Both the position numbers and the translations under genes were made by a program. Below are positions 22,054 to 38,202 of a stretch of 64,000 nt of DNA, piece after piece. How positions within the stretch are numbered: the first letter of the stretch is position 1; each line of letters begins with the position of its first letter. The notes beneath the pieces were generated by a model, which was given only the letters and a program-made list of their open reading frames with translations, was not told where the DNA came from and ran no database searches. The DNA comes from Candidatus Woesearchaeota archaeon. Lineage in GTDB: Archaea; Nanobdellota; Nanobdellia; Pacearchaeales; UBA284. Location of the stretch: NCBI GenBank assembly GCA_964396475.1, contig CAYNFE010000003.1:26588-90587 (forward strand), in the 5' to 3' direction.

Positions 22054-22089
22054 TTTTCTTTTTTCTTATTTTTATATTTTAAGATTAAG

Positions 22090-22614: not shown

Positions 22615-22675
22615 TTTTTCCTCTTTTATTCTGTTCTTATAAAAAAATTATGTTTTATATACTTTTCTTTTTATT

Positions 22676-23158
22676 TTACTTATTTTCTTTTTGATGGGTT
22701 GAAAGTATCAATCCTATGGCCCCACCAAAAATTGCTAAGAAAATTATTAACGCTATTATATCAGGACTCCAAGTTGCAGGAGTTATTAGATTAAAAAGTC
22801 CTGCTGCCCATGCTATTGAGGCTAGAATGGCTATACCAAATAAAATACCTAAAGCTATCTTCAAACCTTTATTCCCTGCTATACCTATAAAACCAAAAAT
22901 CAAAAAATAACCTAATAGAATGATTATCATTACAGCAAACAAAGGGATGAGTCTGATAGTAAAACCAACCAAAGACTGGGCTCCTATCCATATAAAACCA
23001 ATGACAGCAGCAACTATGATATTAGCATATCTTTTATCCTTTCCTAAAACACCTGTCTTTTCAAGAATTGCATAAACAACAACAAAAATTAACAAGAAAG
23101 GTAAAAGAATATTTATGAAAAAAGGATGCAGAAGTAAATTAGGGGTTTCTAAAGCCAT
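22676..23158 (-). CDS. Polytopic membrane protein, paralog 1 of a tandem triplet
   Basis: The motif PFLLIFVVVYAILEKTGVLGKDK is shared with its neighbours. Confidence 0.65.
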   Translation of the reverse strand: MALETPNLLLHPFFINILLPFLLIFVVVYAILEKTGVLGKDKRYANIIVAAVIGFIWIGAQSLVGFTIRLIPLFAVMIIILLGYFLIFGFIGIAGNKGLKIALGILFGIAILASIAWAAGLFNLITPATWSPDIIALIIFLAIFGGAIGLILSTHQKENK

Positions 23159-23178
23159 GATTATTTAAAAATTTGAAT

Positions 23179-23469
23179 TTATTCTACTAATTCTCCAGCC
23201 TCTTTCATTTCTTCTTCTCTTAAAGGGATAGCGCTCTTACTTATAATAACAACCTCACTTATTGCTTTAACATATTGATGTGGAATTATTAAACCACGAG
23301 CACCAGAAAGCAGCGAAGAAAGACTACTGTCCCGGGCAATCTTAACTCTCCAGCTGTCTATTTTATTTTCGACAACATTAGCTTCTTCTATAATGCCCAG
23401 ATAATCTCCAGAGTCTGTAAAAATTTTCATGCCAACCATGTCACTTATTCTCAGAATCTTCAATACCAT
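23179..23469 (-). CDS. PRC-barrel domain protein
   Basis: 96 aa. ISDMVGMKIFTDSGDYLGIIEEANVVENKIDSWRVKI is a typical PRC-barrel pattern. Confidence 0.7.
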   Translation of the reverse strand: MVLKILRISDMVGMKIFTDSGDYLGIIEEANVVENKIDSWRVKIARDSSLSSLLSGARGLIIPHQYVKAISEVVIISKSAIPLREEEMKEAGELVE

Positions 23470-23645: not shown

Positions 23646-25820
23646 ATGGTAAGAGAAGATGTTCGTAAATTTCTAAAAGAATATGAAGCTAAGATAGAAA
23701 AAGAATTAAAAGAAGAGATTTCTGAGGCTCCTGCTGCTTATTCCCGGGAATACAGGAGTTTTAGAAGAGAAACTCTTGCACCCCTCAATTCTTATGAAAG
23801 AGCCTGTAAAAGCATAGGAAGAATAATAAAACTAAAACTTTCAAAAAAAGATGAAGAGAAAACAAAGAGAGCCATAGAAAGAGCTCATCTTGATATCGAA
23901 CCAAGCGAGGCTGCCGGCCTAGCGATTTTTGCTTTAATTGCAACAATAATCCTAGCTTCCTTAATTTCCATGGTAATCTATTTTTTCACAGACACTTTTC
24001 CTTTTTTAATTTTTATACTCATATTTTTTGTATCCTTTTTCTTCTACTATTATCTAAATACTCTTCCAATGAGGATAGAACAAAAATGGCGCTTAAAAGC
24101 ATCCTCACAAATGGTTCCTTGTATCCTCTATATAATTGTTTATATGAGGCATACTTCAAATCTAGAAAGAGCTATCCATTTTGCATCCCAACACTTGCAG
24201 CCCCCTTTATCATTAGACTTAAAAAAGATTTTCTGGAATGTAGAGACTAGTAAATACAGCACAATAAAAGATGCTTTGGATGCTTATCTCGAAACATGGA
24301 GAGAGAAAAATCTTGAATTTGTAGAAGCTTTCCATCTAATAGAATCCTCTCTTTATGAACCCTCTGAAGCAAGACGTATAAAGATCCTAGAAAAATCTAT
24401 GGAAGTTATATTAGATAGAGTTTATGAAAAAATGTTGCATTACTCTCATGAAGTTAAGAGTCCTATTACAAATATCTATATGTTAGGTATAGTTCTTCCA
24501 ACTCTAGGCTTGGCTTTATTGCCTCTGGCTTCAACACTTTTGCAAGGGGCAATAAAATGGTATCATGTGGCTCTTTTATTTAACATAATTATTCCTTTCT
24601 TTGTTTTCTATATGACAAACAGTATCTTAAGTAAACGTCCTGGTGGCTTCGGGGAAACCGAACTTCTGGAAAGAAATCCTGAATACAAGACATATATATC
24701 AAGAAAACCATATGTCACAGCAGCCCTCATTACATTGCCTTTTTTCATAATAGGCTTTTTGCCTTTACTAATGCAGTATGGATTAGCCGATGTTATAGGT
24801 ATTCCTTCTGATTATAGTCTTGAACAGTTAGGGATGGGATTTTTAGGAAATCAAACACTATTCGACTTCAAAATAGATTCTGAGACTGGAGCAACAGTCG
24901 GTCCATTTGGGCCTATTGCCTTATTATTAAGTTTATTTATTCCTTTCTCAATAGCGATGTTTTTTGCAATAGCCTATAAGTTAAAAACACAAAAATTAGT
25001 AAAAACAAGAAATGAAACAAAAAGGCTTGAAAAAGAATTTGCTTCTAGTATCTTTCAGCTTGGAAACAGGCTTGCTGATGGAATTCCTGCTGAGATGGCC
25101 TTTGGAAGGGTCGCAAGATCCCTGAGAGGAACACCGACAGCCGGCTTCTTTAATCTTGTAAATAATAATATTCAACAAGCAGGGATGAGTATCAAAAGTG
25201 CTATATTTTCTGAAGGTCGTGGAGCAATAAACTATTATCCTTCTGAATTAATAAAAACTAGTATGAGAATTCTTATAGAAAGCTCAAAAAAAGGTCTTAG
25301 CGTAGCAGCAAAAGCATTGATGTCTATAAGTGATTACATTAAAAATATTCATAAAGTAAATGAAAGGCTCAAAGATCTTCTTGCTGATGTGACTACAGGG
25401 ATGAAAAGCAACATGACTTTTCTTGCTCCACTACTTGCAGCAATAGTAGTTGGATTGGCTTCAATGATAACTATGATTTTAGGTAGGTTAGAATTAATGA
25501 TATCAACAGGAGATATTACTGCTGAACAAAGTATGACAGGTTTTGGGACAGTAGGAACAGTAACAAGCATGTTCAATATAGCTAAAATGATTCCACCATA
25601 CTGGCTTCAAATCATAGTGGGAATATATATTGTTCAGATTATTTTTATCCTAACACAAACACTAGTCACAATCGAATCAGGAGAGGATAGATTAGGGGAG
25701 AAATCAGAAATAAGCAGAATGTTATTGACAGGAATGATTCTTTATACAATTGCTGCTTTTATAGCAATAATTGCTCTTGCAGTCCTCGCGATAGTATCAG
25801 TAAGTGGAATTATTGCCTAA
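23646..25820 (+). CDS. FlaJ/TadC/PilC-like polytopic membrane platform protein (T2SS-F-like domains)
   Basis: 724 aa. Two cytoplasmic helical regions are each followed by TM bundles: AIERAHLDIEPSEAAGLAIFALIA, and LEKEFASSIFQLGNRLADGIPAEMAFGRVARSL...YPSELIKTSMRILIESSKKG. Confidence 0.55.
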   Translation: MVREDVRKFLKEYEAKIEKELKEEISEAPAAYSREYRSFRRETLAPLNSYERACKSIGRIIKLKLSKKDEEKTKRAIERAHLDIEPSEAAGLAIFALIATIILASLISMVIYFFTDTFPFLIFILIFFVSFFFYYYLNTLPMRIEQKWRLKASSQMVPCILYIIVYMRHTSNLERAIHFASQHLQPPLSLDLKKIFWNVETSKYSTIKDALDAYLETWREKNLEFVEAFHLIESSLYEPSEARRIKILEKSMEVILDRVYEKMLHYSHEVKSPITNIYMLGIVLPTLGLALLPLASTLLQGAIKWYHVALLFNIIIPFFVFYMTNSILSKRPGGFGETELLERNPEYKTYISRKPYVTAALITLPFFIIGFLPLLMQYGLADVIGIPSDYSLEQLGMGFLGNQTLFDFKIDSETGATVGPFGPIALLLSLFIPFSIAMFFAIAYKLKTQKLVKTRNETKRLEKEFASSIFQLGNRLADGIPAEMAFGRVARSLRGTPTAGFFNLVNNNIQQAGMSIKSAIFSEGRGAINYYPSELIKTSMRILIESSKKGLSVAAKALMSISDYIKNIHKVNERLKDLLADVTTGMKSNMTFLAPLLAAIVVGLASMITMILGRLELMISTGDITAEQSMTGFGTVGTVTSMFNIAKMIPPYWLQIIVGIYIVQIIFILTQTLVTIESGEDRLGEKSEISRMLLTGMILYTIAAFIAIIALAVLAIVSVSGIIA

Positions 25821-26616: not shown

Positions 26617-26656
26617 TCAGATTAAATTTTTAAAGTTAAAATACTTTTTGTTTTTG

Positions 26657-26833
26657 ATGAAAAAAGGTAAAAGAAACATTAAAAATAAAAAAGGTCTAGT
26701 CTGGTCAGAAATAAGTTGGTGGGTTATGGGTTTAGTTGTTCTTGCTCTTGTAATAATCTTAATTATTATTTTACAAAAAAGAGGACTTGATATTTTAGAA
26801 CAGATTAAAACCTTTCTAAGGTTCGGGAGATAA
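26657..26833 (+). CDS. Small pilin-like protein (class III signal peptide)
   Basis: MKKGKRNIKNKKG/LVWSEISWWVMGLVVLALVIILIIIL. The ATG at 26657 is preferred over the TTG at 26648. Confidence 0.5.
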   Translation: MKKGKRNIKNKKGLVWSEISWWVMGLVVLALVIILIIILQKRGLDILEQIKTFLRFGR

Positions 26834-26838
26834 AAAAG

Positions 26839-27426
26839 ATGGAAATATGGCAGATAATCAGAGCAATAATTGCTGTGGTAGTTATCTTCGTTGTAATACT
26901 GATAGCTACAGGTTTTTTTAGGCCCCTCTATGAAGAATTGAGCAGGAAACCATTGACGACACAGGAGGAACAGCAAAACACAAATAATTTTGATGCTCTG
27001 ATAAGCAACATAGAAAAATGTTATATTATTGAAGATACTGAATGTGTATGTGATGGTCTTCCTAATTATCCAGGAAGTTTTGCCATAGGTTCAAAACTTA
27101 TTTTTGATGATTTGCCAGATAATAAAATACATGTTAATCTAACTCATAAGGATAAAACTTACAAAGAACACACCCTACAAGGTATAAAAATTGCTGGTAT
27201 TTTTTATGATACAAAAGTAGAAACCCCTTACAGAATTAAAAAAACTCTGGATTTTAGTAAAGAGCCTCCCTTGTTTAAACAAGAAGGGTCTAGAAAAGGA
27301 ATTTTATGGTGGACTAAGGATATATTAATAATAAGCTCCTTTATTTACAAAAAGGAAGATGGGATTTATTTTATTGTAGGATATGAAAAACCACCATTAG
27401 TGCAATTCAGGAAATGTGGAGAATAA
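26839..27426 (+). CDS. N-terminally anchored extracellular protein in the pilin cluster
   Basis: N-terminal TM helix IIRAIIAVVVIFVVILIATGFF, with no clear K-G cleavage motif. Cys pair CYIIEDTECVC. Confidence 0.55.
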   Translation: MEIWQIIRAIIAVVVIFVVILIATGFFRPLYEELSRKPLTTQEEQQNTNNFDALISNIEKCYIIEDTECVCDGLPNYPGSFAIGSKLIFDDLPDNKIHVNLTHKDKTYKEHTLQGIKIAGIFYDTKVETPYRIKKTLDFSKEPPLFKQEGSRKGILWWTKDILIISSFIYKKEDGIYFIVGYEKPPLVQFRKCGE

Positions 27427-27492
27427 AAAAGAAAACTTTTAAAAATAATTCATACTTTCTAAAATAGAATAAAAGAGGTAAATAAAATAAAA

Positions 27493-27852
27493 ATGGATAA
27501 GAAAGGTGTTGAATTGAATATTGCTACAATAGTTGTAGTAATTCTTGCTGTTCTTGTTCTAGTAATTCTTGCTTTGTATTTCACAGGAGGAATGAAAGCA
27601 CTTTGGGGACAAATTACACCTGTGCCAGGAGCATGGGACATAACCCAAGGAACTCAAGCTAGAGCAGCATGCACATTACTCTGTAGTGCACAGGATAAAA
27701 CAGCATTCTGTGAATATAGTGTATTGATAGACTTAAAAGATGAACAAGGGAATACTATAGCTACTGAAGAAAGAAAGTGTTGGGAAGATCCTATTAATGC
27801 AGACAAAGAATCAGAGTGTATATCTGCTGGTTTCAACGAAAACGCCTGTTAA
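27493..27852 (+). CDS. Archaeal type IV pilin-like protein (candidate major pilin) with a Cys-rich C-terminal domain
   Basis: MDKKG/VELNIATIVVVILAVLVLVILALYF, with its own TATA-like and AAGAGG signals upstream. Six Cys in the C-terminal half. Confidence 0.7.
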   Translation: MDKKGVELNIATIVVVILAVLVLVILALYFTGGMKALWGQITPVPGAWDITQGTQARAACTLLCSAQDKTAFCEYSVLIDLKDEQGNTIATEERKCWEDPINADKESECISAGFNENAC

Positions 27853-27858
27853 CAGAAA

Positions 27859-28035
27859 ATGAATAAGAAAGGTGTAGAACTTTCTATCAATACTATAATT
27901 ATAGTAATTCTTGCTGTCATTGCTCTCATTGTAATTATATTTATTTTCTCTGGAGCAATGAGGGGTTTTGCTTCTGACTTATTTACAAAATTAAAGAATG
28001 CTTTGGGATTATGGAATGCATCCCAGATTCAATAA
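27859..28035 (+). CDS. Short type IV pilin-like protein (58 aa), paralog of the preceding gene
   Basis: Not in the ORF track because it is under 60 aa. The translation is MNKKGVELSINTIIIVILAVIALIVIIFIFSGAMRGFASDLFTKLKNALGLWNASQIQ. The first ~25 codons are near-identical to 27493. Confidence 0.6.
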   Translation: MNKKGVELSINTIIIVILAVIALIVIIFIFSGAMRGFASDLFTKLKNALGLWNASQIQ

Positions 28036-28103
28036 CATTAAAATCAAATCACAAAATCACAGTTTAACCAAAATTTTAAATATTCTTTTTATATTATTCT
28101 TCC

Positions 28104-29186
28104 ATGCAGAATAAAAGAGGTCTACTTTTACTTAAACAAATAATTGAATTAATAATTGCAGTTATAGTTATTCTAATCCTTATTTATATGAGTGTTGTAT
28201 TATTTAGGACATATTTCGGAAGACAGGAAGATCTTCAAGCGCAGGGAACTTTAGATAGGATAGTACAAAAACTAGAAAGTTTAGAAGAAGCTGAAACAAA
28301 TTCATACACTTTACTCTCTCCTGCTGGATGGCACATAGTGGCTTTTGACGCAGAACATAATTTCAATGGAAAATTTGAAAAACCAGGAAGTATGTTCCAA
28401 CAAAATATTTTATGCTTATGTGAAAAAAAATGTGATACTAAGTTCTGCAGAGCAATTTCTTTGCCCTTAAAACAGCAGGATAAACTAGTTAACATTGAAA
28501 TAAAGATTGTAGATATCTGGCTAAGTCATAAGATAGATTATTATGAGGTGACTAAAATAGAACCCTCAGTAATAGCTAAAGAATTAAGTGGAAAAGAACA
28601 GACAGAAACAGGTTTTGCTTATGACAAAATGAGCACAGAGAACTGGAATAATGAGATTCCAAGAATAACCTATCAGTATTATGAGCAGTATCAATTAAAT
28701 AGATATGTAGCAAGCAAAGAAGAATTTGAAAAAATTGTTAGAGCAATGATAATCCAAGAATCTAGTACTGTAGAAGATGCTATAGGTTGTGATGGTGAAG
28801 TGGGATTAATGCAAATAATGCCGCAGACAGCCATAGGCCTTGGTCTTAATGTTCCTGACTATGGCCTAGAAGATATATCAAAGATAGCGCCATGTACTAA
28901 TGAAAAAAGAACCTCAGTATCAAAATGCAATATAGTACATCCTGAAAATTGCAACAAGGAAGAAGATGAAAGATTTGATCCAATAAAGAATATTGATGCA
29001 GGAACAAGATATCTATCTGAAAGGATAGCTGAATTCCAAAATCAATGGCTAGGAATAGCTGCATATAACGCTGGTTCTGGGGGTGTAAGAAAAAATTGCC
29101 AGCCTCTTACGATAACTGCTTGTCCTTCAACATTTTCAGGCAGACAATATGTAGAACTAGTTAAAGCAAAAATGGAGTTGATATAA
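28104..29186 (+). CDS. Pilin-signal protein fused to a lytic transglycosylase (SLT, GH23-like) domain
   Basis: N-terminus MQNKRG/LLLLKQIIELIIAVIVILILIYM. C-terminal SLT motifs IIQESS (catalytic Glu-Ser), GLMQIMP and AAYNAGSGGV at nt ~28720-29110. Confidence 0.8.
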   Translation: MQNKRGLLLLKQIIELIIAVIVILILIYMSVVLFRTYFGRQEDLQAQGTLDRIVQKLESLEEAETNSYTLLSPAGWHIVAFDAEHNFNGKFEKPGSMFQQNILCLCEKKCDTKFCRAISLPLKQQDKLVNIEIKIVDIWLSHKIDYYEVTKIEPSVIAKELSGKEQTETGFAYDKMSTENWNNEIPRITYQYYEQYQLNRYVASKEEFEKIVRAMIIQESSTVEDAIGCDGEVGLMQIMPQTAIGLGLNVPDYGLEDISKIAPCTNEKRTSVSKCNIVHPENCNKEEDERFDPIKNIDAGTRYLSERIAEFQNQWLGIAAYNAGSGGVRKNCQPLTITACPSTFSGRQYVELVKAKMELI

Positions 29187-29188
29187 AG

Positions 29189-29308
29189 ATGAAAAATAAA
29201 AAGGGAATCACCTCAGAAATCTTAATCAAATTACTAATACTAATAATCATGTTTGCTATTATTGGTGCAGCATTACTTTATTTATTAAAAAGATATAATG
29301 TGATATAA
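29189..29308 (+). CDS. Mini pilin-like peptide (39 aa)
   Basis: Not in the ORF track. The translation is MKNKKG/ITSEILIKLLILIIMFAIIGAALLYLLKRYNVI. It starts 3 nt after the SLT gene stop. Confidence 0.4.
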   Translation: MKNKKGITSEILIKLLILIIMFAIIGAALLYLLKRYNVI

Positions 29309-29340
29309 AAATTTATTAAGATGAATTCAATTAAAATAAG

Positions 29341-30240
29341 ATGAAAAATAAAAAAGGGGTATTGGTTCAGAACATAATCATAGGAATAATAATTCTTGTA
29401 ATAAGTGCTGCAATAATCTTTTTCTTTCTAAGGGCTTTTCCTTATAGAGAAACAATTGACAAAGAAGCATGCCACCAGTCTGTGATTTTAAGAAGTCAAC
29501 AAATAGCTGGATTACAACCAGGACAACTTGCTGGTATTCCATTAAACTGTAAAACTCAAGAAGTGATAATAAGTTCACCAGATGAAAATTTTATCAAAAG
29601 TGAAATAGCTAACCAGATGTATGACTGTTGGTGGATGTTAGGAGAGGGTAAAATGCAGTTCTGGTCTGAAAGCGCTTGGAGAACTATAGGTGTTCCAGGA
29701 GCAGGCACAGCTAAAACTCATTGCAATATCTGTTCTATAATAAGGTTTGAGGATCAAGCAAAAGACAAGCAGATAGACCTCTTAAGTTATTTAGATGAAA
29801 CAAAGATACCAACAAAAAATATTACTTATATAGAGTATTTCATGAATCCTGGAACAAAATTACCAGCAGAACTTAAGGTTGATAAGCTGGACACGAACAA
29901 GGATTATGCTTTAATATATATGGGAATAAAAGGTGCTGAAGTAAAAGAAACAATCATAAATTTCATAGGGCTTAGCGGGGGCTCAGCTTTTGCAACCGGA
30001 GCAATACTAAAAATTGGTTTAGGGGTTGGCTTAAAAACGGCACTAAAAGCAGCAGGATGGGTAGGATTAATTATAGGTGTCTTAGAAGCTGCTGGCCAGA
30101 TAACAACCTTCTGGACACATGCGCATGCTTCAGCAATACACTGTGATGGTGAAACAGGAGGATGTTACGCACTAATTCTCATACCTTTAGAGGCATCAGG
30201 AATATCTGAGCAGTGTCAGAACATAGAAAGCATTCCTTAA
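29341..30240 (+). CDS. Pilin-signal protein with a Cys-rich domain and a C-terminal Gly-zipper hydrophobic region
   Basis: MKNKKG/VLVQNIIIGIIILVISAAIIFFFL. Later GLSGGSAFATGAILKIGLGVGLKTALKAAGWVGLIIGVLEAAG. Confidence 0.65.
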   Translation: MKNKKGVLVQNIIIGIIILVISAAIIFFFLRAFPYRETIDKEACHQSVILRSQQIAGLQPGQLAGIPLNCKTQEVIISSPDENFIKSEIANQMYDCWWMLGEGKMQFWSESAWRTIGVPGAGTAKTHCNICSIIRFEDQAKDKQIDLLSYLDETKIPTKNITYIEYFMNPGTKLPAELKVDKLDTNKDYALIYMGIKGAEVKETIINFIGLSGGSAFATGAILKIGLGVGLKTALKAAGWVGLIIGVLEAAGQITTFWTHAHASAIHCDGETGGCYALILIPLEASGISEQCQNIESIP

Positions 30241-30313
30241 ATTTTCTTAGATCTTATTTCCTTAGATCTTATTTTTTGATAAGATTTATTAATATTATTT
30301 CTTTAGCTCATCT

Positions 30314-30661
30314 ATGCTTAAAGATAAAAGAGGTATTGAGCTTGGTTGGGAATTTATTTTTACTCTTCTGTTTGTCGTAGCAATAATAATAATAATCAGT
30401 TTCTGGATAGGCAGCCAAGCTTCAGGAAGTGCGATGAAAAAACAGATTCTTGCAAAAGAAATCTGTCTGCTCGTGACATCAGCAGAACCTGGAACTACTA
30501 TAATGATTGAGACTGAAAAGAAAATGAGCATAATAAGACAGAATACTGGAATAGTTGTTAAAGAGAGTGAGCTTGACAGAGGATATTTTTATGATTGTTA
30601 TTTCAAAGATAATATTGATTTTTCAAAAAAAGATGATATCATGATTATAGAAATAAGATAA
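30314..30661 (+). CDS. Pilin-like protein (class III signal peptide)
   Basis: MLKDKRG/IELGWEFIFTLLFVVAIIIIISFWI. Confidence 0.6.
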   Translation: MLKDKRGIELGWEFIFTLLFVVAIIIIISFWIGSQASGSAMKKQILAKEICLLVTSAEPGTTIMIETEKKMSIIRQNTGIVVKESELDRGYFYDCYFKDNIDFSKKDDIMIIEIR

Positions 30662-30687
30662 AAAAAACTGAATAAAAAAACGAAAAT

Positions 30688-31146
30688 ATGATGAAAAAAA
30701 CAAACAAGAAAGCCCAGTTAGGACATGCAACAACCTGGCTCCATAAATTTTTTATACTTGTTTTAGTCATTGGAGGAATAATAGCTATAGTAACTATGCA
30801 TTATTCTAAGCAATACGATGTTCGTGATGTTGAAGCTAGTGTAGTTGCAAGAAACATAGTGGAATGCGTGGCTCCTGGAGGCATTCTAAAAGAATTTAAT
30901 GAAGAAACAATAAGAAACTGTTTTCCTTTCAATGAGGAAGAGATTTATATGAATATAACCTTAGAAAATGATAATTTGGTTTTTGGAAATGATTTTCTTG
31001 CTACACTCTGTAAAGCAGAGGGAAAAAAAGTAAAAGTAGAATACTACCCAGCATGTTTAGAAGAAAGATATTATGTTCTTGAAAATGATGAAGGAAAAAC
31101 CCTAAATTTATTTATAGCAATCAAAAAAATTGGGAAAAATCTATAA
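30688..31146 (+). CDS. Pilin-like protein (KKAQ-type class III signal)
   Basis: MMKKTNKKAQLGHATTWLHKFFILVLVIGGIIAIV. Confidence 0.55.
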   Translation: MMKKTNKKAQLGHATTWLHKFFILVLVIGGIIAIVTMHYSKQYDVRDVEASVVARNIVECVAPGGILKEFNEETIRNCFPFNEEEIYMNITLENDNLVFGNDFLATLCKAEGKKVKVEYYPACLEERYYVLENDEGKTLNLFIAIKKIGKNL

Positions 31147-31148
31147 AA

Positions 31149-31592
31149 ATGCAAACAATAATAAAAAATAAAAAAGCACAGGCTGGAGAATTACTTCAAG
31201 ATACAGTAGGATTAGTAATTATAGCTCTCTTATTAATTATCTTTCTTGTCATATCTAGCAGTTTATGGGGCTTTCCAAAAAAAGAATTAGAGACTCTAGC
31301 CACAGAGCACTCTATTCATAACCAAGAACATCTCTCTCTTCAAGCATGGCTACAAAAGAGTATTGAGATAGAAATCGATGGAGAAAATCAAAAGATAACT
31401 ATGGCTGACTTGATAAGACTTTCAAAAATAAATCCATATTACAAGGAAATTCTGGACCAGGAAGCAAGTTATGCATTTGACATCTATAATTATGAATTTG
31501 AAACGAGCAATAAAAAAGAAATAGAAATGGGTTCGTCATTTTATATTCCATCTAATGAAACTATCAAAGTTAATTTAGAAATTAAGAAATAA
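31149..31592 (+). CDS. Pilin-like protein (KKAQ-type class III signal)
   Basis: MQTIIKNKKAQAGELLQDTVGLVIIALLLIIFLVI. It starts 3 nt after the previous stop. Confidence 0.55.
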   Translation: MQTIIKNKKAQAGELLQDTVGLVIIALLLIIFLVISSSLWGFPKKELETLATEHSIHNQEHLSLQAWLQKSIEIEIDGENQKITMADLIRLSKINPYYKEILDQEASYAFDIYNYEFETSNKKEIEMGSSFYIPSNETIKVNLEIKK

Positions 31593-31621
31593 ATAGAAAA
31601 TAAAATAGCAAGAAAAATAAA

Positions 31622-32419
31622 ATGATAAATATGAAAGGAAAAAGAGCAGGAATTTTTGCAGCAGGATTGGTTTTAGGAATGATTATTTTTATAGGGTTAT
31701 CTTGGCATTCATTCTCAACAACTAACAGAAATCTAAATATGGGAATAATTAAAGCACTCTCTTCAACCCAATACAAAGACATGGAAAACAAAGTCTCTTT
31801 TTATTTAGATGAATCAGCAAAATTAGCATCATCACAAGCTTTTTATGAAATTGCAAAAAACAGCGCAGTAAACAAAGAAAGTATGTGTAATGTCATAAAT
31901 GATAATATAATATGGAATTCGAACTGTAGACCAGAACAGCAGTTCATAGAATCTATGTTTATTGAAAAATATAATCAAAGCTTTTATGGTTTTCTGGAAA
32001 ATTATCTAGAAGAAGATCTCAAAGCAGAGTATATTCATATTATAAAAGAAGGAAAAATAGAGTCAAGCGCAGAGCAAAAAACTTTTGTTAGCCAGGAAGG
32101 GACTTCTCTCTCAACTTACAAATTAAGTTATGTTCTTGACCCATCCATAACTCACAATCTTAATGAACAAGATATCTATCTAGGAGATTTTGAATTTATA
32201 TATCAAGAAACAGACTCTGTCATACTAAAATGTAAAGATAATGATGATGTTGTTTCTTGTGTTAAAAAAAATCTAAACCTAGCAAGATGGACAACAAAAG
32301 TGAAAAAAGAAGCTTCTTATTTGATTTTTGAACTTGAAACAAAAAAATCTTTCTTTTTCGAAGATCCTGAAGAAAAATTTGAACCTGTCGTGTTAAATTT
32401 TGCAATGAATGCAGAATAG
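31622..32419 (+). CDS. Pilin-like or pilus-associated protein
   Basis: MINMKGKRAG/IFAAGLVLGMIIFIGLSW followed by a ~235-aa extracellular domain. Confidence 0.55.
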   Translation: MINMKGKRAGIFAAGLVLGMIIFIGLSWHSFSTTNRNLNMGIIKALSSTQYKDMENKVSFYLDESAKLASSQAFYEIAKNSAVNKESMCNVINDNIIWNSNCRPEQQFIESMFIEKYNQSFYGFLENYLEEDLKAEYIHIIKEGKIESSAEQKTFVSQEGTSLSTYKLSYVLDPSITHNLNEQDIYLGDFEFIYQETDSVILKCKDNDDVVSCVKKNLNLARWTTKVKKEASYLIFELETKKSFFFEDPEEKFEPVVLNFAMNAE

Positions 32420-33445: not shown

Positions 33446-33511
33446 AAGTATAGTTCTAAACATATAATCTAACTGAATAATCTTTATAAAACTCTCGTCC
33501 CTTGAAACACT

Positions 33512-34493: not shown

Positions 34494-35258
34494 TTATTTT
34501 CTTTTTCTCTTTATTGTTTTTGCTTTTGCTATTTTTGGTTTAACAGGCTTTGCCTTAGCTATCTTCTTCAATTTTCTCATTTCCTCACTTAGTTCTCTTA
34601 ATTCCTTAACTGACCCTGTTAAAGGCTTGACAACTTTTCCAAAAGCTCCTTCTAGAGCTTGTATTTCTGTCCCTAATGATTTTACATCTCTGCCATACTC
34701 TTGCATCTTTCCTAGGGTAGCTGATTGAAGTTTATCAAAAGATCTCTCTAATCTCTTTATCCGTTCATCCAAACTTTTTATTCTTGATTCAATATACCTT
34801 TTAAATTCTATAATATCACCAGCCTTCTTTGTAAACTCTTCCCATTTCTCTCTTATAATTTCCTCAGCAAGTTCTTCCATTGATTCTGTTGATGCTGGTT
34901 CATAAGTAGAAGGATAAGCATAAGGATAGCCTTCACTCTCAGGAGCAGATACAGCAGCAGGAGCGGCTTGAGCAGGAGCATAATAAGCTTCTTCAGGTTG
35001 TTCTTGTTGAGACATTATAGAAGGAGTCATCTCTTCTTCAGCTGTTTCAGCAGATTCATAAGGACTAGGAGCATAAACTTCAGACTCCATACCTGCAGTT
35101 TCAGCTAATTCCATCTTAATCTTGGCTTGATTCATAGCATCATTTATCTCGGTAGGAGTGTAACCCTCTTCTCTCAGATAACGAATTATATCAGCATCTG
35201 TATACCCTTGCTTGCTTAATTTTAAAATATCATTAACAGATATTTTTTTCTTTGGCAT
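34494..35258 (-). CDS. Coiled-coil protein with a small N-terminal helical domain, an acidic linker and a basic tail (possibly FlaC-like accessory)
   Basis: ISVNDILKLSKQGYTDADIIRYLREEGYTPTEINDAMNQA, then an E/A/P-rich linker, then heptad-rich IESRIKSLDERIKRLERSFDKLQ, then a K-rich tail. Confidence 0.6.
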   Translation of the reverse strand: MPKKKISVNDILKLSKQGYTDADIIRYLREEGYTPTEINDAMNQAKIKMELAETAGMESEVYAPSPYESAETAEEEMTPSIMSQQEQPEEAYYAPAQAAPAAVSAPESEGYPYAYPSTYEPASTESMEELAEEIIREKWEEFTKKAGDIIEFKRYIESRIKSLDERIKRLERSFDKLQSATLGKMQEYGRDVKSLGTEIQALEGAFGKVVKPLTGSVKELRELSEEMRKLKKIAKAKPVKPKIAKAKTIKRKRK

Positions 35259-35330
35259 CTTTTCTTGTTCTCTTCTCTTTTCTATATTTATTCTTATTCT
35301 TTATTGTTTTTAAATTTTTTATTTTTTTCT

Positions 35331-35726
35331 TTATTCTTCATCAATTTCTATTATGCCGTCTCTTTTATCTTTAACAGCTTTTTTGACTATTCTTTTTACA
35401 TCATCCATAGTGGCAAATTCAAGAGGCTCAAACATTTTCACATATCTTTCTAAAACCTTTATCTCTTCTTTTCGTGCAAATTCAGAACTTTCTCGAACAA
35501 TATGCTCGACTGTTTCTTTTAGTCTGTCAATTTCATTATGAACATTCCTCATATCCTCTTTCATCACGACCATTTCTTTATTCAGTTTTTCACTCTGCTT
35601 TAATATTGTCTGGCTCAAAGTAAGTAGTCTTTCCTTGATTTGTGTCGTTCTCTCCTCTATATCATTAACTCTTATACTAAACTCTGAAAGAAGAGCAGAA
35701 ACAGCGCCAAGATCTCTTTCATCCAT
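35331..35726 (-). CDS. Coiled-coil protein (possibly FlaC-like accessory)
   Basis: 131 aa and almost entirely heptad-like: IEERTTQIKERLLTLSQTILKQSEKLNKEMVVMKEDMRNVHNEIDRLKETVEHI. Confidence 0.6.
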   Translation of the reverse strand: MDERDLGAVSALLSEFSIRVNDIEERTTQIKERLLTLSQTILKQSEKLNKEMVVMKEDMRNVHNEIDRLKETVEHIVRESSEFARKEEIKVLERYVKMFEPLEFATMDDVKRIVKKAVKDKRDGIIEIDEE

Positions 35727-35901: not shown

Positions 35902-38202
35902 ATGATTTTCAAGAAAGATATAAAATTATATGGTTATGACGTTGTGAGAGAGGCTAGCCAGGATGTAATGTATATTAATTATCTTGGTGCCCCTTATGTT
36001 CCTTCTATATCAGATTCTCCTTTAGTGATGGCCAGAACCATAGATTCTTTAATTGAATCACCAAATGTCTCTAGATTAGTTTTTGTTCAGCAGAGAAACT
36101 ACAGCCATAATTTTAGACAAGTTTCTTTATTGATAGAAATAGGACAATTGTATGTGCATCTAATAAAACAAGAAAAAGTTTTGGAGCCAACTACATTAGA
36201 ACCTTTTAGATGTAAGAGACATTTGCCTCAAAGATATGACACTATGCGTTATCTCATTCTAACCCTACTAAAACAAGATCCTATAGGTTGTTATGTCGAA
36301 GCAAAAAGACTTCTTCGAGAAGAAAAGATAGTAGTTAAAAAAATACCAAAAAGTGCAAAAGCTGAGCAGACTTGTGAGGCACACTATATCAGGCTTCTAA
36401 CAAAAATTATCTCACTTCTAGAAAATTTAACAATAATAAAAACACTGAAAGAAGGACTTTTAGGTCATAAAGTTGGTGAAAGGACATTGTACAAAGAAAT
36501 CTTTAGGCCAGAAATCGTTCCTAACTTCACATTTACTAGATTGATGTCTACTTTTCCTCCAGAAGCTGAAATCATAGAGCAATATGACATAGGACCAGAA
36601 CACGATAGAAGCACAGTAACAATTCTAAAAATTCCAGGAAGAACAAAATACATTTACCATATAATGGCTCCTGAATTTACTCTTCCAGAAAATCTTCAAA
36701 CTTTGGTGAACTTAGCTAGAAATGTCTTGCTCGAACATAAGCCAAGAGCAGAAGAATTTGTTGATCCTGCAAGAATAAGAACAGTATTCTTCAACATTGC
36801 TAGAGATTTAATTAGAGAATTAGCTGGAACAAAGAAAATCACATTAAGTTATAGAAAAATCAATAAATTAGCAACAATTCTAGTCAGACACACGATAGGT
36901 TTTGGTTTGATAGAGGTTCTTTTGCAAGATGATAAAATACAAGATATAATGATTAATGCCCCTCCTGGTATAGTGCCAATATTTGTCAGGCATCAGGAAT
37001 TTGATGAATGTGATACTAATATAATCTCAAGCCATGAAGATGCTGAATCATGGGCAGCCAAATTCAGAATGATGTCTGGAAGGCCTCTTGATGAAGCTAA
37101 TCCTGTTTTAGATACAGAACTTATTATTGGAATAGCCAGGGCAAGAGTCTCAATAATTCAACAGCCATTAAGTCCTTATGGTCTTGCCTATGCTCTCAGA
37201 AGACATAGAGAAAAGCCTTGGACCCTTCCTCTCTATATAAAAAATAAGATGATAAATCCAATCACAGCTGGAGTGCTTTCTTTCTTAATTGATGGTTCTA
37301 GAACAATGCTCATTGCTGGAACTCGTTCTAGTGGAAAAACATCTATGTTAGGAGCTTGTATGTTAGAAATCATGTCACGTTACAGAATGATTGTAATAGA
37401 AGGAACAATGGAATTACCAGTTGTTTCTTTCAGAGATTTGGGTTATGATATATTAAGAATGAAAGTACGAGAAGCTTTGGCTAGAGAAACAACTGAGTTA
37501 AGTGCAGCTGAAGGAATAAGAACTTCCTTACGTTTAGGAGATTCAAGTCTCATAGTTGGTGAAGTTAGAAGTGAAGAGGCTTTAGCATTGTATGAGGCAA
37601 TGCGTATTGGTGCTTTAGCTAATGTAGTAGCAGGAACTATTCATGGTGCATCTCCTTATGGTGTTTTTGATAGAGTTGTTAATGACTTAAAAGTCCCAGC
37701 AACAAGTTTCAAAGCAACAGACATCATACTAGTGTGTAATCCTATTAAAAGTCCTGATGGTCTTCATAGATGGAGAAGGGTTTTAGAACTAGCTGAAGTA
37801 AGAAAACACTGGACAACAGACCCTAATACAGAAAAAGGATTTCTCGATCTTTTGAAGTATGATGTTAGAAAAGATGAGCTTATTGCAACAGATGATTTAA
37901 TTAATGGAGAAAGTGAAGTCCTTAAAGATATAGCAGGAAATGTCAAGGGATGGGCAGGTTCTTGGGATGCTGTCTGGGATAATATCCTTCTCAGATCAAA
38001 AATAAAAGAAACAATAGTTAAAACATCAGACAAATTAAAAAATCCTGACATACTCGAAGCTCCCTGGGTTCTTAAATCTAATAATATGTTCCATGAAATA
38101 AGTGATAAGGTAAGGAAAGATATAGGCATACCAAAAGGAAAAAGAGTTTTCAAAGAATGGCAGGACTGGTTCAAAAAAGAAATAAAAAAGAGAAAATTAT
38201 AA
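35902..38202 (+). CDS. FlaI/VirB11/GspE-family secretion or pilus-assembly ATPase with a long N-terminal extension
   Basis: Walker A AGTRSSGKTSMLGA. LIVGEVRSEEALALYEAMRIG. His-box AGTIHGASPYGV. 766 aa, so roughly 450 aa precede the ATPase core. Confidence 0.85.
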   Translation: MIFKKDIKLYGYDVVREASQDVMYINYLGAPYVPSISDSPLVMARTIDSLIESPNVSRLVFVQQRNYSHNFRQVSLLIEIGQLYVHLIKQEKVLEPTTLEPFRCKRHLPQRYDTMRYLILTLLKQDPIGCYVEAKRLLREEKIVVKKIPKSAKAEQTCEAHYIRLLTKIISLLENLTIIKTLKEGLLGHKVGERTLYKEIFRPEIVPNFTFTRLMSTFPPEAEIIEQYDIGPEHDRSTVTILKIPGRTKYIYHIMAPEFTLPENLQTLVNLARNVLLEHKPRAEEFVDPARIRTVFFNIARDLIRELAGTKKITLSYRKINKLATILVRHTIGFGLIEVLLQDDKIQDIMINAPPGIVPIFVRHQEFDECDTNIISSHEDAESWAAKFRMMSGRPLDEANPVLDTELIIGIARARVSIIQQPLSPYGLAYALRRHREKPWTLPLYIKNKMINPITAGVLSFLIDGSRTMLIAGTRSSGKTSMLGACMLEIMSRYRMIVIEGTMELPVVSFRDLGYDILRMKVREALARETTELSAAEGIRTSLRLGDSSLIVGEVRSEEALALYEAMRIGALANVVAGTIHGASPYGVFDRVVNDLKVPATSFKATDIILVCNPIKSPDGLHRWRRVLELAEVRKHWTTDPNTEKGFLDLLKYDVRKDELIATDDLINGESEVLKDIAGNVKGWAGSWDAVWDNILLRSKIKETIVKTSDKLKNPDILEAPWVLKSNNMFHEISDKVRKDIGIPKGKRVFKEWQDWFKKEIKKRKL

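What the first reader, a model, noticed from the sequence alone, without database searches (positions are those of the whole stretch)
26657..32419. Eleven consecutive small surface-protein genes, ten with class III (prepilin) signal peptides: an unusually large archaeal pilin or pseudopilin battery
Eleven same-strand genes are tightly packed, several with 3-nt gaps. Ten open with a short basic segment ending K/R-G or K-A followed by a ~20-residue hydrophobic helix: KKG/LVW, KKG/VEL (twice), KRG/LLL, KKG/ITS, KKG/VLV, KRG/IEL, KKA/QLG, KKA/QAG and KRA/GIF. The gene at 26839 has only an N-terminal anchor. Two are tiny (58 and 39 aa) and are missed by a 60-aa ORF cutoff. The C-terminal domains are diverse and many are Cys-rich. 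The N-terminal pattern is the archaeal PibD/EppA substrate architecture, which is established knowledge. The number and diversity of subunits in one array, with an embedded enzyme, looks more like a T2SS-type pseudopilus set or a complex tip assembly than a simple adhesive pilus. No prepilin peptidase is recognisable anywhere in the window.
Basis: partly seen in the sequence, partly recalled or inferred. Interest (0 to 1): 0.7.

Follow-up and report, generated by a model that had tools for sequence, protein, structure and literature searches.

The report
Archaeal pilus operon with wall-cutting pilin
Eleven packed genes in a tiny symbiotic archaeon (Pacearchaeota) encode the subunits of a type IV pilus-like machine, and one subunit carries an enzyme that cuts bacterial cell walls, which suggests these archaea use the filament to attach to and breach bacteria.

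Summary
Eleven same-strand genes (26657-32419) are real, and ten open with a conserved N-K-K/R-G/A leader followed by a hydrophobic helix.

They are the subunit block of a type IV filament (TFF) locus conserved in Pacearchaeota/Woesearchaeota; its platform protein is encoded in at least 573 species genomes. One is a divergent 724-aa platform protein directly upstream (23646-25820). The other is a FlaI/TadA-like ATPase 3.5 kb downstream (35902-38202).

In most relatives the order is ATPase, platform, 7-12 pilin-like genes, then an A24 prepilin peptidase. The peptidase is absent from this window and from its closest clade.

The new point concerns the "embedded enzyme" (28104-29186). It is itself a modular pilin-like protein: a conserved ~165-aa carrier with a predicted pilin-like architecture, fused to an intact SLT lytic transglycosylase. 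In relatives the same carrier bears GH73 glucosaminidase, 3D, M15/VanY or Amidase_2 modules. Every Pfam-recognisable module on this carrier cleaves peptidoglycan.

Most likely the filament or pseudopilus presents a murein-cutting enzyme to bacterial hosts. I rate it a new variant of a known kind, interest about 0.68.

The parts
23646..25820 (+). 724-aa polytopic membrane protein, the candidate assembly platform (divergent GspF/PilC/TadB-like)
   Evidence: No Pfam or NCBIfam hit. More than 4800 homologs, 52-79% identical, found in at least 573 GTDB species genomes of Pacearchaeota/Woesearchaeota/Nanoarchaeota. The ATPase gene is its adjacent called neighbour in 31 of 61 loci, and the pilin array follows it. 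AF2 model pLDDT 81. Foldseek local matches, prob 1.00, TM 0.72-0.75, to cytoplasmic domains of OutF/EpsF, plus the PilC model 3jc8. hhalign E=3.8e-22 to the ATPase-adjacent 'secretion system protein' of Haloterrigena pHTUR04. Some JGI records name it 'Flp pilus assembly protein TadB'.
26657..26833 (+). g1, 58-aa helix-only class III-type protein (leader ...NKKG|LVWSEI); an alternative TTG start lies at 26648
   Evidence: Best-hit matches in 61 loci, with conserved NK[KR]G|LVWSEIxWW and a C-terminal LRFGR in close relatives.
26839..27426 (+). g2, 195-aa protein with a plain N-terminal membrane anchor (no K/R-G motif); an accessory, not a prepilin
   Evidence: Orthologs in 17 loci all lack the motif.
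27493..27852 (+). g3, 119-aa pilin-like protein (MDKKG|VELNIATIVVVILAV); candidate filament subunit
   Evidence: Best-hit matches in 57 loci. Paralog of g4.
27859..28035 (+). g4, 58-aa helix-only pilin-like protein (MNKKG|VELSINTIIIVILAV); Flp/EpdE-like in size; candidate major subunit (inference)
   Evidence: Best-hit matches in 31 loci.
28104..29186 (+). g5, a modular pilin-like lytic transglycosylase. Class III leader (MQNKRG|LLLL) plus carrier module (residues 1-~162), then an SLT/GH23 domain (residues ~163-360).
   Evidence: Pfam SLT E=2.5e-22. E219-S220, GLMQ and AYNAG are invariant in SLT-bearing homologs. AF2 pLDDT 82: helix 4-59, beta domain 65-154, then a helical domain. Foldseek top hits are Slt/MltD/Slt70, prob 1.0. 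The carrier is conserved while the C-terminal module is swapped for Glucosaminidase, 3D, M15/VanY or Amidase_2 in relatives.
29189..29308 (+). g6, 39-aa class III-type mini-protein (MKNKKG|ITSEILIK)
   Evidence: Orthologs in 15 loci, with conserved C-terminal LLKR(Y/F)G(V/L)I.
29341..30240 (+). g7, 299-aa pilin-like protein and the most widely conserved subunit. It has 8 Cys and a Gly-rich second hydrophobic stretch.
   Evidence: Best-hit matches in 71 loci. Conserved DKEACHxSVxxR and PLxCKT. Second hydrophobic segment in 52 of 68 orthologs.
30314..30661 (+). g8, 115-aa pilin-like protein (DKRG|IELGWEF)
   Evidence: Best-hit matches in 59 loci.
30688..31146 (+). g9, 152-aa pilin-like protein (NKKA|QLGHA)
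   Evidence: Best-hit matches in 60 loci.
31149..31592 (+). g10, 147-aa pilin-like protein (NKKA|QAGEL)
   Evidence: Best-hit matches in 16 loci.
31622..32419 (+). g11, 265-aa pilin-like protein (KGKRA|GIFA)
   Evidence: Best-hit matches in 18 loci.
35902..38202 (+). 766-aa secretion ATPase of the GspE/FlaI/TadA (CpaF) family, the assembly motor
   Evidence: Pfam T2SSE 7e-11. NCBIfam FlaI 2e-34 and TadA 4.5e-33, both far below the equivalog cut-offs. PDB: A. fulgidus GspE2 8e-26, CpaF 6e-20, FlaI 4e-15. In 31 related loci the ATPase gene is the called gene adjacent to the platform gene.
34494..35726 (-). Two coiled-coil proteins (254 and 131 aa) divergently upstream of the ATPase; conserved neighbours of unknown role
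   Evidence: Each found in 55 loci beside the ATPase. Only weak coiled-coil Pfam hits.
38240..38971 (+). 243-aa membrane protein after the ATPase; a conserved neighbour with an M50/S2P-like remnant; not a prepilin peptidase
   Evidence: Found in 30 loci. No conserved Asp. An L070 ORF that resembles it carries the canonical NxxPxxxLDG motif; that ORF was not aligned to mem243.
21568..23469 (-). Three paralogous 160-174-aa 4-5-TM proteins plus a PRC-barrel protein; conserved neighbours of unknown role
   Evidence: Syntenic in 44-58 loci. Sequences.

Best explanation
The eleven genes are the subunit block of a type IV filament (T4P-like) machine that is a conserved feature of Pacearchaeota/Woesearchaeota.

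**Shown**
- Ten genes encode proteins with a short basic leader ending K/R-G/A, followed by a hydrophobic helix.
- The block lies directly downstream of a conserved polytopic protein with a GspF-like cytoplasmic domain.
- A FlaI/TadA-type ATPase is nearby. In most relatives ATPase, platform, array and an A24 prepilin peptidase form one contiguous cluster.

**Inferred**
- The A24 peptidase, encoded elsewhere in this genome, removes the leader after G/A.
- The ATPase and platform extrude the subunits from the membrane into a filament or short pseudopilus.
- The small helix-only or small-domain proteins (g4, g3, perhaps g1) form the shaft.
- The larger diverse proteins (g5, g7-g11) act as minor or tip subunits.

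**The g5 subunit**
- Shown: g5 is a modular pilin-like protein. Its ~165-aa carrier has a predicted long N-terminal helix plus a beta domain. It is fused to a lytic transglycosylase with intact catalytic motifs.
- Shown: the same carrier in relatives bears other peptidoglycan-cleaving modules.
- Inferred: the machine presents a murein-cutting enzyme at the cell surface or filament tip. This would locally open the wall of a bacterial host or prey at the contact site, for attachment, nutrient access or DNA access.
For: - **Motif and clustering:**
- **Synteny:** 87 related loci with the order ATPase-platform-array-A24. 32 of 45 loci of at least 20 kb hold all four core parts.
- **A24 peptidase:** Pfam PF01478 E=6e-14 to 9e-10, above the cut-off, with 'QDxKxREVxNW' and 'AGGDAKLL' motifs. 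NCBI names homologs 'prepilin peptidase [Candidatus Pacearchaeota archaeon]'.
- **ATPase family:**
- **Platform:**
- **g5 domain:** SLT domain and motifs.
- **g5 architecture:** pilin-like helix plus sheet. Weak profile hits to type IV pilins, with the alignment starting at the leader (Geobacter PilA E=0.018).
- **Module swapping on one carrier:** SLT, GH73 and 3D in close relatives whose platform proteins are 63-79% identical to the window's.
- **Module census:** among 73 long carrier-family representatives the only Pfam domains are SLT 13, Glucosaminidase 5, 3D 3, M15/VanY 2 and Amidase_2 1.
- **Bacterial SLT homologs** use Sec-type N-termini, not class III.
- **Literature:** murein hydrolases in these lineages are proposed to target bacteria (PMC8204110, PMC9723730). 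Archaeal PG hydrolases kill bacteria, and many lack a recognised Sec/Tat signal (PMC12352652).
Against: - No A24 peptidase in the 64-kb window or within +-10 kb in the closest clade. Processing in this organism is therefore unproven.
- No pilin-family Pfam or NCBIfam model hits any subunit.
- Foldseek found no solved pilin for the g5 carrier.
- The platform has no Pfam T2SSF hit, no hhalign match to a canonical haloarchaeal T2SSF protein, and no detectable internal duplication.
- About two thirds of long carrier proteins have unrecognised C-terminal modules, and many carriers have no module at all.
- No expression, localisation, activity or host data exist here.
Confidence: 0.7

Rival explanations
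1. This is a bindosome- or T2SS-like pseudopilus rather than a long pilus. The class III proteins would form a short, membrane-rooted stalk that anchors enzymes (g5) and binding proteins at the cell surface. Its job would be to scavenge peptidoglycan fragments and other polymers, not to attack a host.
For: - Ten diverse subunits with no obvious dominant major pilin.
- Functional proteins with class III signals are the hallmark of the Sulfolobus bindosome, and a recent preprint proposes that such proteins are widely used to functionalise TFF machines (10.64898/2026.04.22.720090).
- Other large class III proteins in related arrays carry protease, lectin or Ig-like modules (Peptidase_S8, Laminin_G_3, FG-GAP, Big).
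Against: - The NCBIfam BasE match of the ATPase is weak (57 bits against a cut-off of 1000).
- No ABC transporter or substrate-binding proteins are linked to the array.
- Helix-only mini-pilins (g1, g4, g6) resemble Flp/EpdE-type filament subunits in size.
Confidence: 0.2
2. The main role is DNA uptake or exchange, as a competence- or Ups-like pilus. The muralytic subunit would help reach DNA or the partner cell.
For: - RPA and RadA directly follow the array here, and RPA lies near the array end in many distant loci.
- Pili and competence genes are jointly noted in ultra-small prokaryotes (PMC9938205).
- Ups pili in Sulfolobales are linked to DNA-repair genes.
Against: - The adjacency may only reflect conserved gene order in small genomes.
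- No ComEC/DprA or Ced-like genes are in the window.
- This role does not by itself explain five kinds of peptidoglycan hydrolase on the carrier.
Confidence: 0.1
3. The N-termini are ordinary uncleaved signal anchors. The proteins would be independent membrane-tethered surface proteins, and their proximity to the ATPase and platform would be coincidental.
For: - No peptidase in the window clade.
- No pilin-family HMM hits.
- g2 in the same array is a plain anchor.
Against: - N(-4) and K(-3) are conserved, along with G/A(-1) and a 5-6-residue leader, across 597 proteins.
- The array is contiguous with ATPase, platform and A24 peptidase in 32 of 45 well-covered loci.
- The NKKG motif is strictly kept in the window clade.
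Confidence: 0.05
4. The SLT module serves the producer itself. Like VirB1, FlgJ or BfpH in bacteria, it would open the cell's own wall so that the machine can assemble.
For: Bacterial trans-envelope machines commonly encode a dedicated lytic transglycosylase in the operon (established knowledge, not tested here).
Against: - Archaea normally lack murein, and murein transglycosylases are normally absent from them (PMC8204110).
- Bacterial assembly lytic transglycosylases are not fused to pilins. The bacterial SLT homologs found here have Sec-type N-termini.
- Many relatives assemble the same locus with a carrier that has no recognisable muralytic module.
Confidence: 0.05

Closest known systems
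Archaeal type IV pili / TFF systems, especially the Epd pilus of Methanococcus maripaludis ('System 1' of Sivabalasarma & Albers 2026, 10.64898/2026.04.22.720090)
   Same: - Core set of ATPase, platform, several class III-signal subunits and a dedicated A24 peptidase in one cluster of about 11 genes.
- Many diverse pilins.
- A small major pilin lacking a globular domain.
- System 1 is reported in some DPANN.
   Different: - One 724-aa platform protein with no Pfam T2SSF hit, instead of two platform genes.
- The ATPase is below all equivalog cut-offs.
- No subunit hits the known archaeal pilin HMMs.
- A dedicated carrier subunit bears muralytic modules.
- In the window clade the ATPase block is separated from the array and the peptidase gene is absent from the +-10 kb fetched around the platform gene.
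Bacterial modular type IV pilins (Streptococcus sanguinis PilB/PilC; survey in PMC8179133)
   Same: A small pilin module carries a grafted functional module for presentation by the filament. The paper's survey lists peptidase modules as well as adhesin modules.
   Different: - Archaeal rather than bacterial.
- The modules are peptidoglycan hydrolases, and neither 'transglycosylase' nor 'peptidoglycan' occurs in that paper's main text.
- One conserved carrier exchanges at least five muralytic families.
Sulfolobus bindosome (class III-signal substrate-binding proteins assembled by BasEF)
   Same: Functional, non-filament proteins are exported and positioned through a class III signal and a TFF base machine.
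   Different: - The cargo here is enzymes acting on a foreign polymer, not ABC-transporter binding proteins.
- The cargo gene sits inside the pilin operon.
- The ATPase is not a BasE ortholog.
Large extracellular SLT / PG-hydrolase proteins of Pacearchaeota, Woesearchaeota and other archaea (PMC8204110, PMC9723730, PMC12352652)
   Same: Same lineages, the same enzyme class, and the same proposed target (bacterial murein).
   Different: - Those are giant (up to 3000 aa) or Sec/Tat-secreted proteins. The window also has such a giant M23 protein at 1637-9418.
- The proteins described here are small, carry a prepilin-type leader and sit in the TFF operon. That linkage was not found in any of the papers read.
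Bacterial Tad/Flp pilus
   Same: The ATPase is closest to archaeal GspE2 and to CpaF/TadA. Both have tiny helix-only subunits. JGI names the platform 'TadB' and the peptidase 'CpaA'.
   Different: - No secretin, TadZ, or RcpA/B/C.
- A single fused platform.
- An archaeal gene context.

Membership tests
Type IV filament (TFF) superfamily machine | Hexameric secretion ATPase of the GspE/PilB/FlaI/TadA family | tested here: met
   35902-38202: Pfam T2SSE 7e-11. NCBIfam FlaI 2e-34 and TadA 4.5e-33. PDB GspE2, CpaF and FlaI at 8e-26 to 4e-15.
Type IV filament (TFF) superfamily machine | Polytopic platform protein of the GspF/PilC/FlaJ/TadBC family | tested here: inconclusive
   For:
- Position beside the ATPase and the array.
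- Foldseek prob 1.00, TM 0.72-0.75 to OutF/EpsF cytoplasmic domains.
- hhalign E=3.8e-22 to an ATPase-adjacent haloarchaeal 'secretion system protein'.

Against:
- No Pfam T2SSF or NCBIfam hit.
- No match to a canonical T2SSF protein or to PDB sequences.
- No internal repeat detected.
Type IV filament (TFF) superfamily machine | Subunits with class III signal peptides (short basic leader, G/A at -1, hydrophobic alpha-1N) | tested here: met
   Ten of eleven genes; the motif is conserved in orthologs. Actual cleavage is not testable with these tools.
Type IV filament (TFF) superfamily machine | Dedicated A24 prepilin (class III signal) peptidase | tested here: not met
   Absent from the window and from +-10 kb in the closest clade. 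Present at the distal end of the array in 44 related loci, Pfam PF01478 E down to 6e-14. The rest of this genome could not be searched.
Type IV pilin fold | About 50-residue N-terminal alpha helix packed against an antiparallel beta sheet | tested here: inconclusive
   The g5 AF2 model has helix 4-59 and then strands 65-154, with pLDDT above 90 in the beta domain. No solved pilin is among the Foldseek hits. Only weak profile hits to type IV pilins (E=0.018). The other subunits were not modelled.
GH23 family-1 lytic transglycosylase (SLT domain) | SLT fold with a catalytic Glu in the E-S motif, plus GLMQ and AYNxG motifs | tested here: met
   Pfam SLT 2.5e-22. E219, S220, G234-L235-x-Q237 and A320-Y321-x-x-G324 are invariant. 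Foldseek hits Slt, MltD, Slt70 and LtgA at prob 1.0. Enzyme activity is not testable here.
Archaellum | FlaI equivalog, archaellins, FlaH/FlaJ and other accessory genes | tested here: not met
   The FlaI model scores 119 bits against a cut-off of 550. No archaellin or Fla accessory hits in the window.
Sulfolobus-type bindosome | BasE/BasF machinery and class III substrate-binding proteins linked to ABC transporters | tested here: not met
   BasE scores 57 bits against a cut-off of 1000. No substrate-binding proteins are in the array.
Bacterial T2SS pseudopilus (GspG-K) | GspG-K pseudopilin homologs, a secretin, and secreted exoprotein substrates | tested here: not met
   No pseudopilin or secretin Pfam/NCBIfam hit in the array or window. 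This organism is an archaeon, and no secretin gene was found in the window. Working like a pseudopilus is not excluded.

The most novel reading that the evidence does not exclude
Pacearchaeota/Woesearchaeota possess a dedicated pilin-like 'carrier' subunit that mounts interchangeable peptidoglycan-cleaving modules (SLT, GH73, 3D, M15/VanY, Amidase_2) on a type IV filament. This would be a pilus-borne tool for breaching bacterial cell walls. It would also be direct genomic evidence that these widespread, uncultivated DPANN archaea live on bacterial rather than archaeal hosts. And it would explain how archaeal PG hydrolases that lack Sec/Tat signals reach their target.
Probability: 0.45. Interest if true: 0.85.

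Novelty: new variant of a known kind. Interest (0 to 1): 0.68.

Why it matters
Pacearchaeota and Woesearchaeota are abundant and uncultivated. Their hosts and their mode of interaction are unknown. The literature read here proposes bacterial hosts on the basis of giant murein hydrolases, but gives no delivery mechanism.

This locus links murein hydrolases physically and evolutionarily to a conserved surface machine whose platform protein is encoded in more than 570 species genomes. That yields testable predictions:
- cleavage by the A24 peptidase;
- surface or tip display of g5;
- activity on defined sacculi.

It also offers molecular handles for finding hosts, such as antibodies and module specificity toward Gram-positive or Gram-negative wall chemotypes.

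Three further points follow. The 'modular pilin' principle now extends from bacteria to archaea. A platform-protein family invisible to the Pfam and NCBIfam models tried here is exposed. And a 2025 survey's finding that most archaeal PG hydrolases lack a recognised Sec/Tat signal may be partly explained.

Tried and rejected
1. **mem243 (38240-38971) as a hidden prepilin peptidase.** Rejected. No conserved Asp, and an M50/S2P-like remnant instead.
2. **The three 160-174-aa membrane paralogs as the peptidase.** Rejected on sequence.
3. **First GxGD regex.** It missed the real A24 genes, whose motif is AGGDAK. A broader regex found them.
4. **Platform by sequence.** Pfam, NCBIfam and a PDB profile search gave nothing. 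hhalign to a canonical haloarchaeal T2SSF gave nothing. The internal-duplication test was negative.
5. **Pilin HMMs.** No Pfam or NCBIfam pilin family hits any subunit. Foldseek of full-length g5 returned only SLT-domain matches.
6. **Reaching the rest of the genome.**
   - Exact look-ups for g7 and g5 were not on record.
   - Look-ups for edge genes gave only short contigs.
   - None of the top 120 of 1148 A24 homologs lies on the contigs of the window clade.
8. **Chance Pfam hits.** Colicin_V on g4, NGF on g11 and Tox-SHH on g5 are all below the cut-off and were disregarded.

Full report
**1. The observation**

ORF listing confirms eleven consecutive + strand genes between 26657 and 32419. 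Intergenic gaps run from 2 to 73 nt, and four of them are 2-6 nt.

A scan for [KR][GA] within the first 25-30 residues followed by a strongly hydrophobic stretch picks out these genes. Elsewhere in the 64 kb it finds only about four ORFs: a MacB permease, a PAP2 protein, a 621-aa protein at 9435-11300 and one spurious ORF.

The gene at 26839 has no such motif in any ortholog and is a plain N-terminal anchor. Three ORFs, not two, are shorter than 60 aa (g1, g4, g6). All three have best-hit matches in related loci (61, 31 and 15 loci), so they are real genes.

GC content is about 31% across the window. The surrounding genes are archaeal housekeeping genes: SRP54, FtsY, RPA, RadA, FtsZ, aIF5A, ribosomal L1/L10/P1 and Spt5.

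**2. Origin and conservation**

The SLT protein and the upstream membrane protein have close homologs. Where a name is given, the sources call them Candidatus Pacearchaeota archaeon.

Contigs holding SLT-protein homologs 40-74% identical keep the same gene order. A scan of one genome per GTDB species with the upstream membrane protein found at least 573 species genomes encoding it. Nearly all of the 80 listed are labelled Pacearchaeota, Woesearchaeota or Nanoarchaeota; a few are labelled archaeon, bacterium or Parvarchaeum. Eighty loci were fetched with 10-kb flanks.

**3. The machine around the array**

*ATPase.* The window contains a 766-aa secretion ATPase at 35902-38202.
- Pfam T2SSE 7e-11.
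- NCBIfam FlaI 2e-34 and TadA 4.5e-33, both far below the equivalog cut-offs.
- Nearest solved relatives are Archaeoglobus GspE2, CpaF and FlaI.

*Platform.* Directly upstream of the array lies a 724-aa protein with about nine hydrophobic segments (23646-25820). It has no Pfam or NCBIfam hit.
- The listed top hits are 57-84% identical to the window protein. In the 80 fetched loci identity is 52-79%.
- The ATPase gene is its adjacent called neighbour in 31 of the 61 loci where an ATPase is seen, and the pilin-like array follows it.
- Its AlphaFold model (pLDDT 81) gives Foldseek local matches to the cytoplasmic domains of the T2SS platform proteins OutF and EpsF (probability 1.00, TM 0.72-0.75, rmsd about 2.9 Å). 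It also matches the PilC model of the T4aP machine.
- A profile of the family matches the protein encoded right after the closest plasmid-borne ATPase homolog, on Haloterrigena pHTUR04, with hhalign E=3.8e-22 over 486 columns.
- It does not match a canonical haloarchaeal T2SSF protein.
- Some JGI records call it 'Flp pilus assembly protein TadB'.

I read it as a strongly divergent platform protein. Family membership by sequence remains unproven.

**4. The peptidase**

No A24 peptidase is in the window (Pfam on 70 window ORFs including all polytopic ORFs; motif scan).

A broader motif scan of the related loci found a 266-338-aa polytopic protein with 'QDxKxREVxNW' and 'FAGGDAKLL'. In 44 loci it lies on the far side of the pilin array from the platform gene, in nearly all cases on the array's strand. 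Pfam confirms Peptidase_A24 (E=6e-14 to 9e-10, above the gathering score). NCBI names homologs 'prepilin peptidase [Candidatus Pacearchaeota archaeon]'.

Of 45 loci with at least 20 kb fetched, 32 contain ATPase, platform, array and A24 peptidase. The exceptions are mainly the window and its closest relatives (L001-L017). There the array is followed after 54 nt by RPA and RadA, and the ATPase block lies beyond them. The order array, A24..., RPA..., RadA is still seen in other lineages and is probably ancestral.

The peptidase of this organism must therefore be encoded more than 26-32 kb away, or it has been lost. I could not test which. The strict retention of the NKKG-type leader in this clade argues that processing is kept.

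**5. The leaders**

Over 597 array proteins from the related loci, the positions not fixed by my search are N at -4 (58%) and K at -3 (83%). G outnumbers A at -1 (377 to 203). The leader is mostly 5-6 residues. Acidic residues or Q are common at +1 to +5.

This is the short basic leader with G/A at -1 typical of prepilin-type (class III) signals (established knowledge of PibD/EppA/PilD substrates). Each gene family has its own conserved mature N-terminus, for example G|VELSINTIIIIILA in g3/g4 and A|QAGELxQD in g10.

No known pilin HMM hits them.

**6. The enzyme is a modular pilin-like protein**

g5 (28104-29186) has the leader MQNKRG|LLLL, then a ~165-aa module, then an SLT domain (Pfam 2.5e-22).

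In SLT-bearing homologs the catalytic E-S pair (E219-S220) and the GLMQ and AYNAG motifs are invariant.

The AlphaFold model (pLDDT 82) shows a 56-residue N-terminal helix (4-59). A beta domain follows (65-154, pLDDT above 90). That is the lollipop architecture of type IV pilins. A helical domain comes next, and it matches Slt, MltD, Slt70 and LtgA (probability 1.0).

A profile of the carrier alone gives only weak PDB hits. The top three are Geobacter type IV pilins, aligned from the leader onward (E=0.018-0.05).

Bacterial SLT homologs of g5 have Sec-type N-termini or N-terminal hydrophobic anchors. The fusion therefore appears lineage-specific.

**7. Module swapping**

BLAST hits of g5 in most loci fall on the carrier, not on SLT. 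The carrier keeps invariant A46, C104, C106, C110 and C115, and nearly invariant P73 and W76.

In close relatives (platform 63-79% identical to the window's) the same gene position carries different modules:

| Module at the g5 position | Loci |
|---|---|
| SLT | window, L001, L002, L005-L008, L011 |
| Glucosaminidase/GH73 | L010 (6e-22), L017 (3e-13) |
| 3D domain | L015 (3.5e-11) |
| No extra module | L009, L012-L014, L016 |

A full HMMER search with the carrier alone found 695 clusters (50% identity) at E<=1e-3. Among 73 long members, the only Pfam domains detected at E<=1e-4 are listed below:

| Pfam family | Members |
|---|---|
| SLT | 13 |
| Glucosaminidase | 5 |
| 3D | 3 |
| Peptidase_M15 / VanY | 2 |
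| Amidase_2 | 1 |

Every recognisable module is a peptidoglycan-cleaving family, and together they attack glycan, amide and peptide bonds. The few names that sources give these proteins agree: 'beta-N-acetylglucosaminidase' and 'lytic transglycosylase domain-containing protein [Candidatus Pacearchaeota archaeon]'.

Other large class III proteins in related arrays carry protease, lectin or Ig-like modules. Grafting modules onto pilin-like proteins is thus common in this system. This particular carrier, however, appears dedicated to muralytic modules.

**8. How it most likely works**

*Shown.* A conserved cluster holds the four core TFF parts in most relatives. Ten subunits have prepilin-type leaders. 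One subunit joins a carrier of pilin-like architecture to an SLT domain with intact catalytic motifs.

*Inferred.*
- The peptidase trims the leaders.
- The ATPase and platform assemble the subunits into a filament or short pseudopilus.
- g4/g3 (and perhaps g1) form the shaft, and the larger proteins are minor or tip subunits.
- g5 exposes its enzyme outside the cell.

Archaea normally lack murein (PMC8204110). Pseudomurein producers contribute almost none of the archaeal PG hydrolases (PMC12352652). The target is therefore most likely the wall of bacteria. This fits earlier proposals of bacterial hosts or prey for these lineages (PMC8204110, PMC9723730).

The window also encodes a 2593-aa protein with an M23 peptidase domain.

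**9. Rivals**

- A bindosome- or T2SS-like surface-display stalk is compatible with most of the data. It differs mainly in filament length and purpose.
- A DNA-uptake role is suggested only by the RPA/RadA neighbourhood.
- Uncleaved anchors are unlikely, given motif conservation and the linked A24 genes.
- A self-wall remodelling role for SLT is unlikely without murein.

Details and refuting tests are given under each rival.

**10. Comparison with what is known**

T4P-like loci in DPANN, class III signals and modular pilins in bacteria are all established (PMC6098224 listed; PMC8179133; 10.64898/2026.04.22.720090). So are large SLT proteins in Pacearchaeota/Woesearchaeota.

None of the papers I found or read describes muralytic enzymes fused to a prepilin-type carrier inside an archaeal TFF operon. 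None describes exchange of several hydrolase families on one carrier.

The 2025 survey of archaeal PG hydrolases reports that only 32% have a known signal peptide, all of them Sec or Tat. It does not mention pilins.

I therefore rate this a new variant of a known kind. The pilin battery itself is an ordinary, lineage-typical TFF operon. The dedicated muralytic carrier and the very divergent, very conserved platform family are the new elements.

**11. Limits**

- Everything on processing, assembly, localisation, enzyme activity and host is inference.
- Only two proteins were modelled.
- The pilin fold is supported for g5 only, and only by predicted architecture.
- Two thirds of the long carrier proteins have unidentified modules.
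- The rest of this genome could not be searched for the peptidase.

Noticed in passing
window 1637-9418 (-) and 9435-11300 (-): A giant 2593-aa protein carries a Peptidase_M23 (murein endopeptidase) domain (Pfam 1.6e-23) and a Sec-like N-terminus. The adjacent 621-aa protein has a class III-like leader, MQHKKA|QVTIF. A homolog of the 621-aa protein lies next to g3-like pilin genes near the platform gene in L086.
   Followed up: partly
window 47985-48518 (-): A 177-aa, 5-TM protein with no Pfam hit. It has a Cys/Arg/His pattern (DACIAG, NIIRL, THKVFW) that recalls exosortase/archaeosortase. The resemblance is from memory and was not tested.
   Followed up: no
window 21568-23158 (-) and 23179-23469 (-): Three paralogous 160-174-aa membrane proteins and a PRC-barrel protein keep synteny with the ATPase/platform/pilin locus in 44-58 of 87 related loci. 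They may be unrecognised accessory parts of the machine.
   Followed up: partly
window 34494-35258 (-) and 35331-35726 (-): A pair of coiled-coil proteins lies divergently upstream of the ATPase in 55 related loci. Function unknown.
   Followed up: partly
window 38240-38971 (+): A 243-aa membrane protein after the ATPase, conserved in 30 loci. It has an M50/S2P-like C-terminal motif but no HExxH and no conserved Asp, so it may be a degenerate site-2-protease relative.
   Followed up: partly
window 32474-34477 (+): RPA and RadA genes start 54 nt after the last pilin-like gene. RPA is near the array end in many distant loci too, and RadA in some. This could be conserved gene order or a link to DNA uptake.
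   Followed up: partly
window 29341-30240 (+): g7 is the most widely conserved subunit. It has conserved DKEACHxSVxxR and PLxCKT motifs, 8 Cys, and a glycine-rich second hydrophobic stretch (residues ~205-250) present in 52 of 68 orthologs. A membrane-inserting element is conceivable.
   Followed up: partly
window 28410-28450 (g5 residues 104-115): The carrier module has an invariant C-x-C-x3-C-x4-C cluster across 37-73 diverse homologs. It could form disulfides or a metal site.
   Followed up: no
L088 (Haloterrigena turkmenica plasmid pHTUR04) 7212-10980: A haloarchaeal plasmid carries the closest plasmid-borne ATPase homolog (37% identity). Directly after it lies a 604-aa 'secretion system protein' homologous to the Pacearchaeota platform family (hhalign E=3.8e-22). 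That protein also lacks a Pfam T2SSF hit. It is flanked by DUF7311, a helicase, ParA and DUF87 genes.
   Followed up: partly
window 25810-26616 (-): A Sec-signal 268-aa protein is wedged between the platform gene and the array. It is variable, being found in only 7 related loci and replaced or absent in the others.
   Followed up: partly
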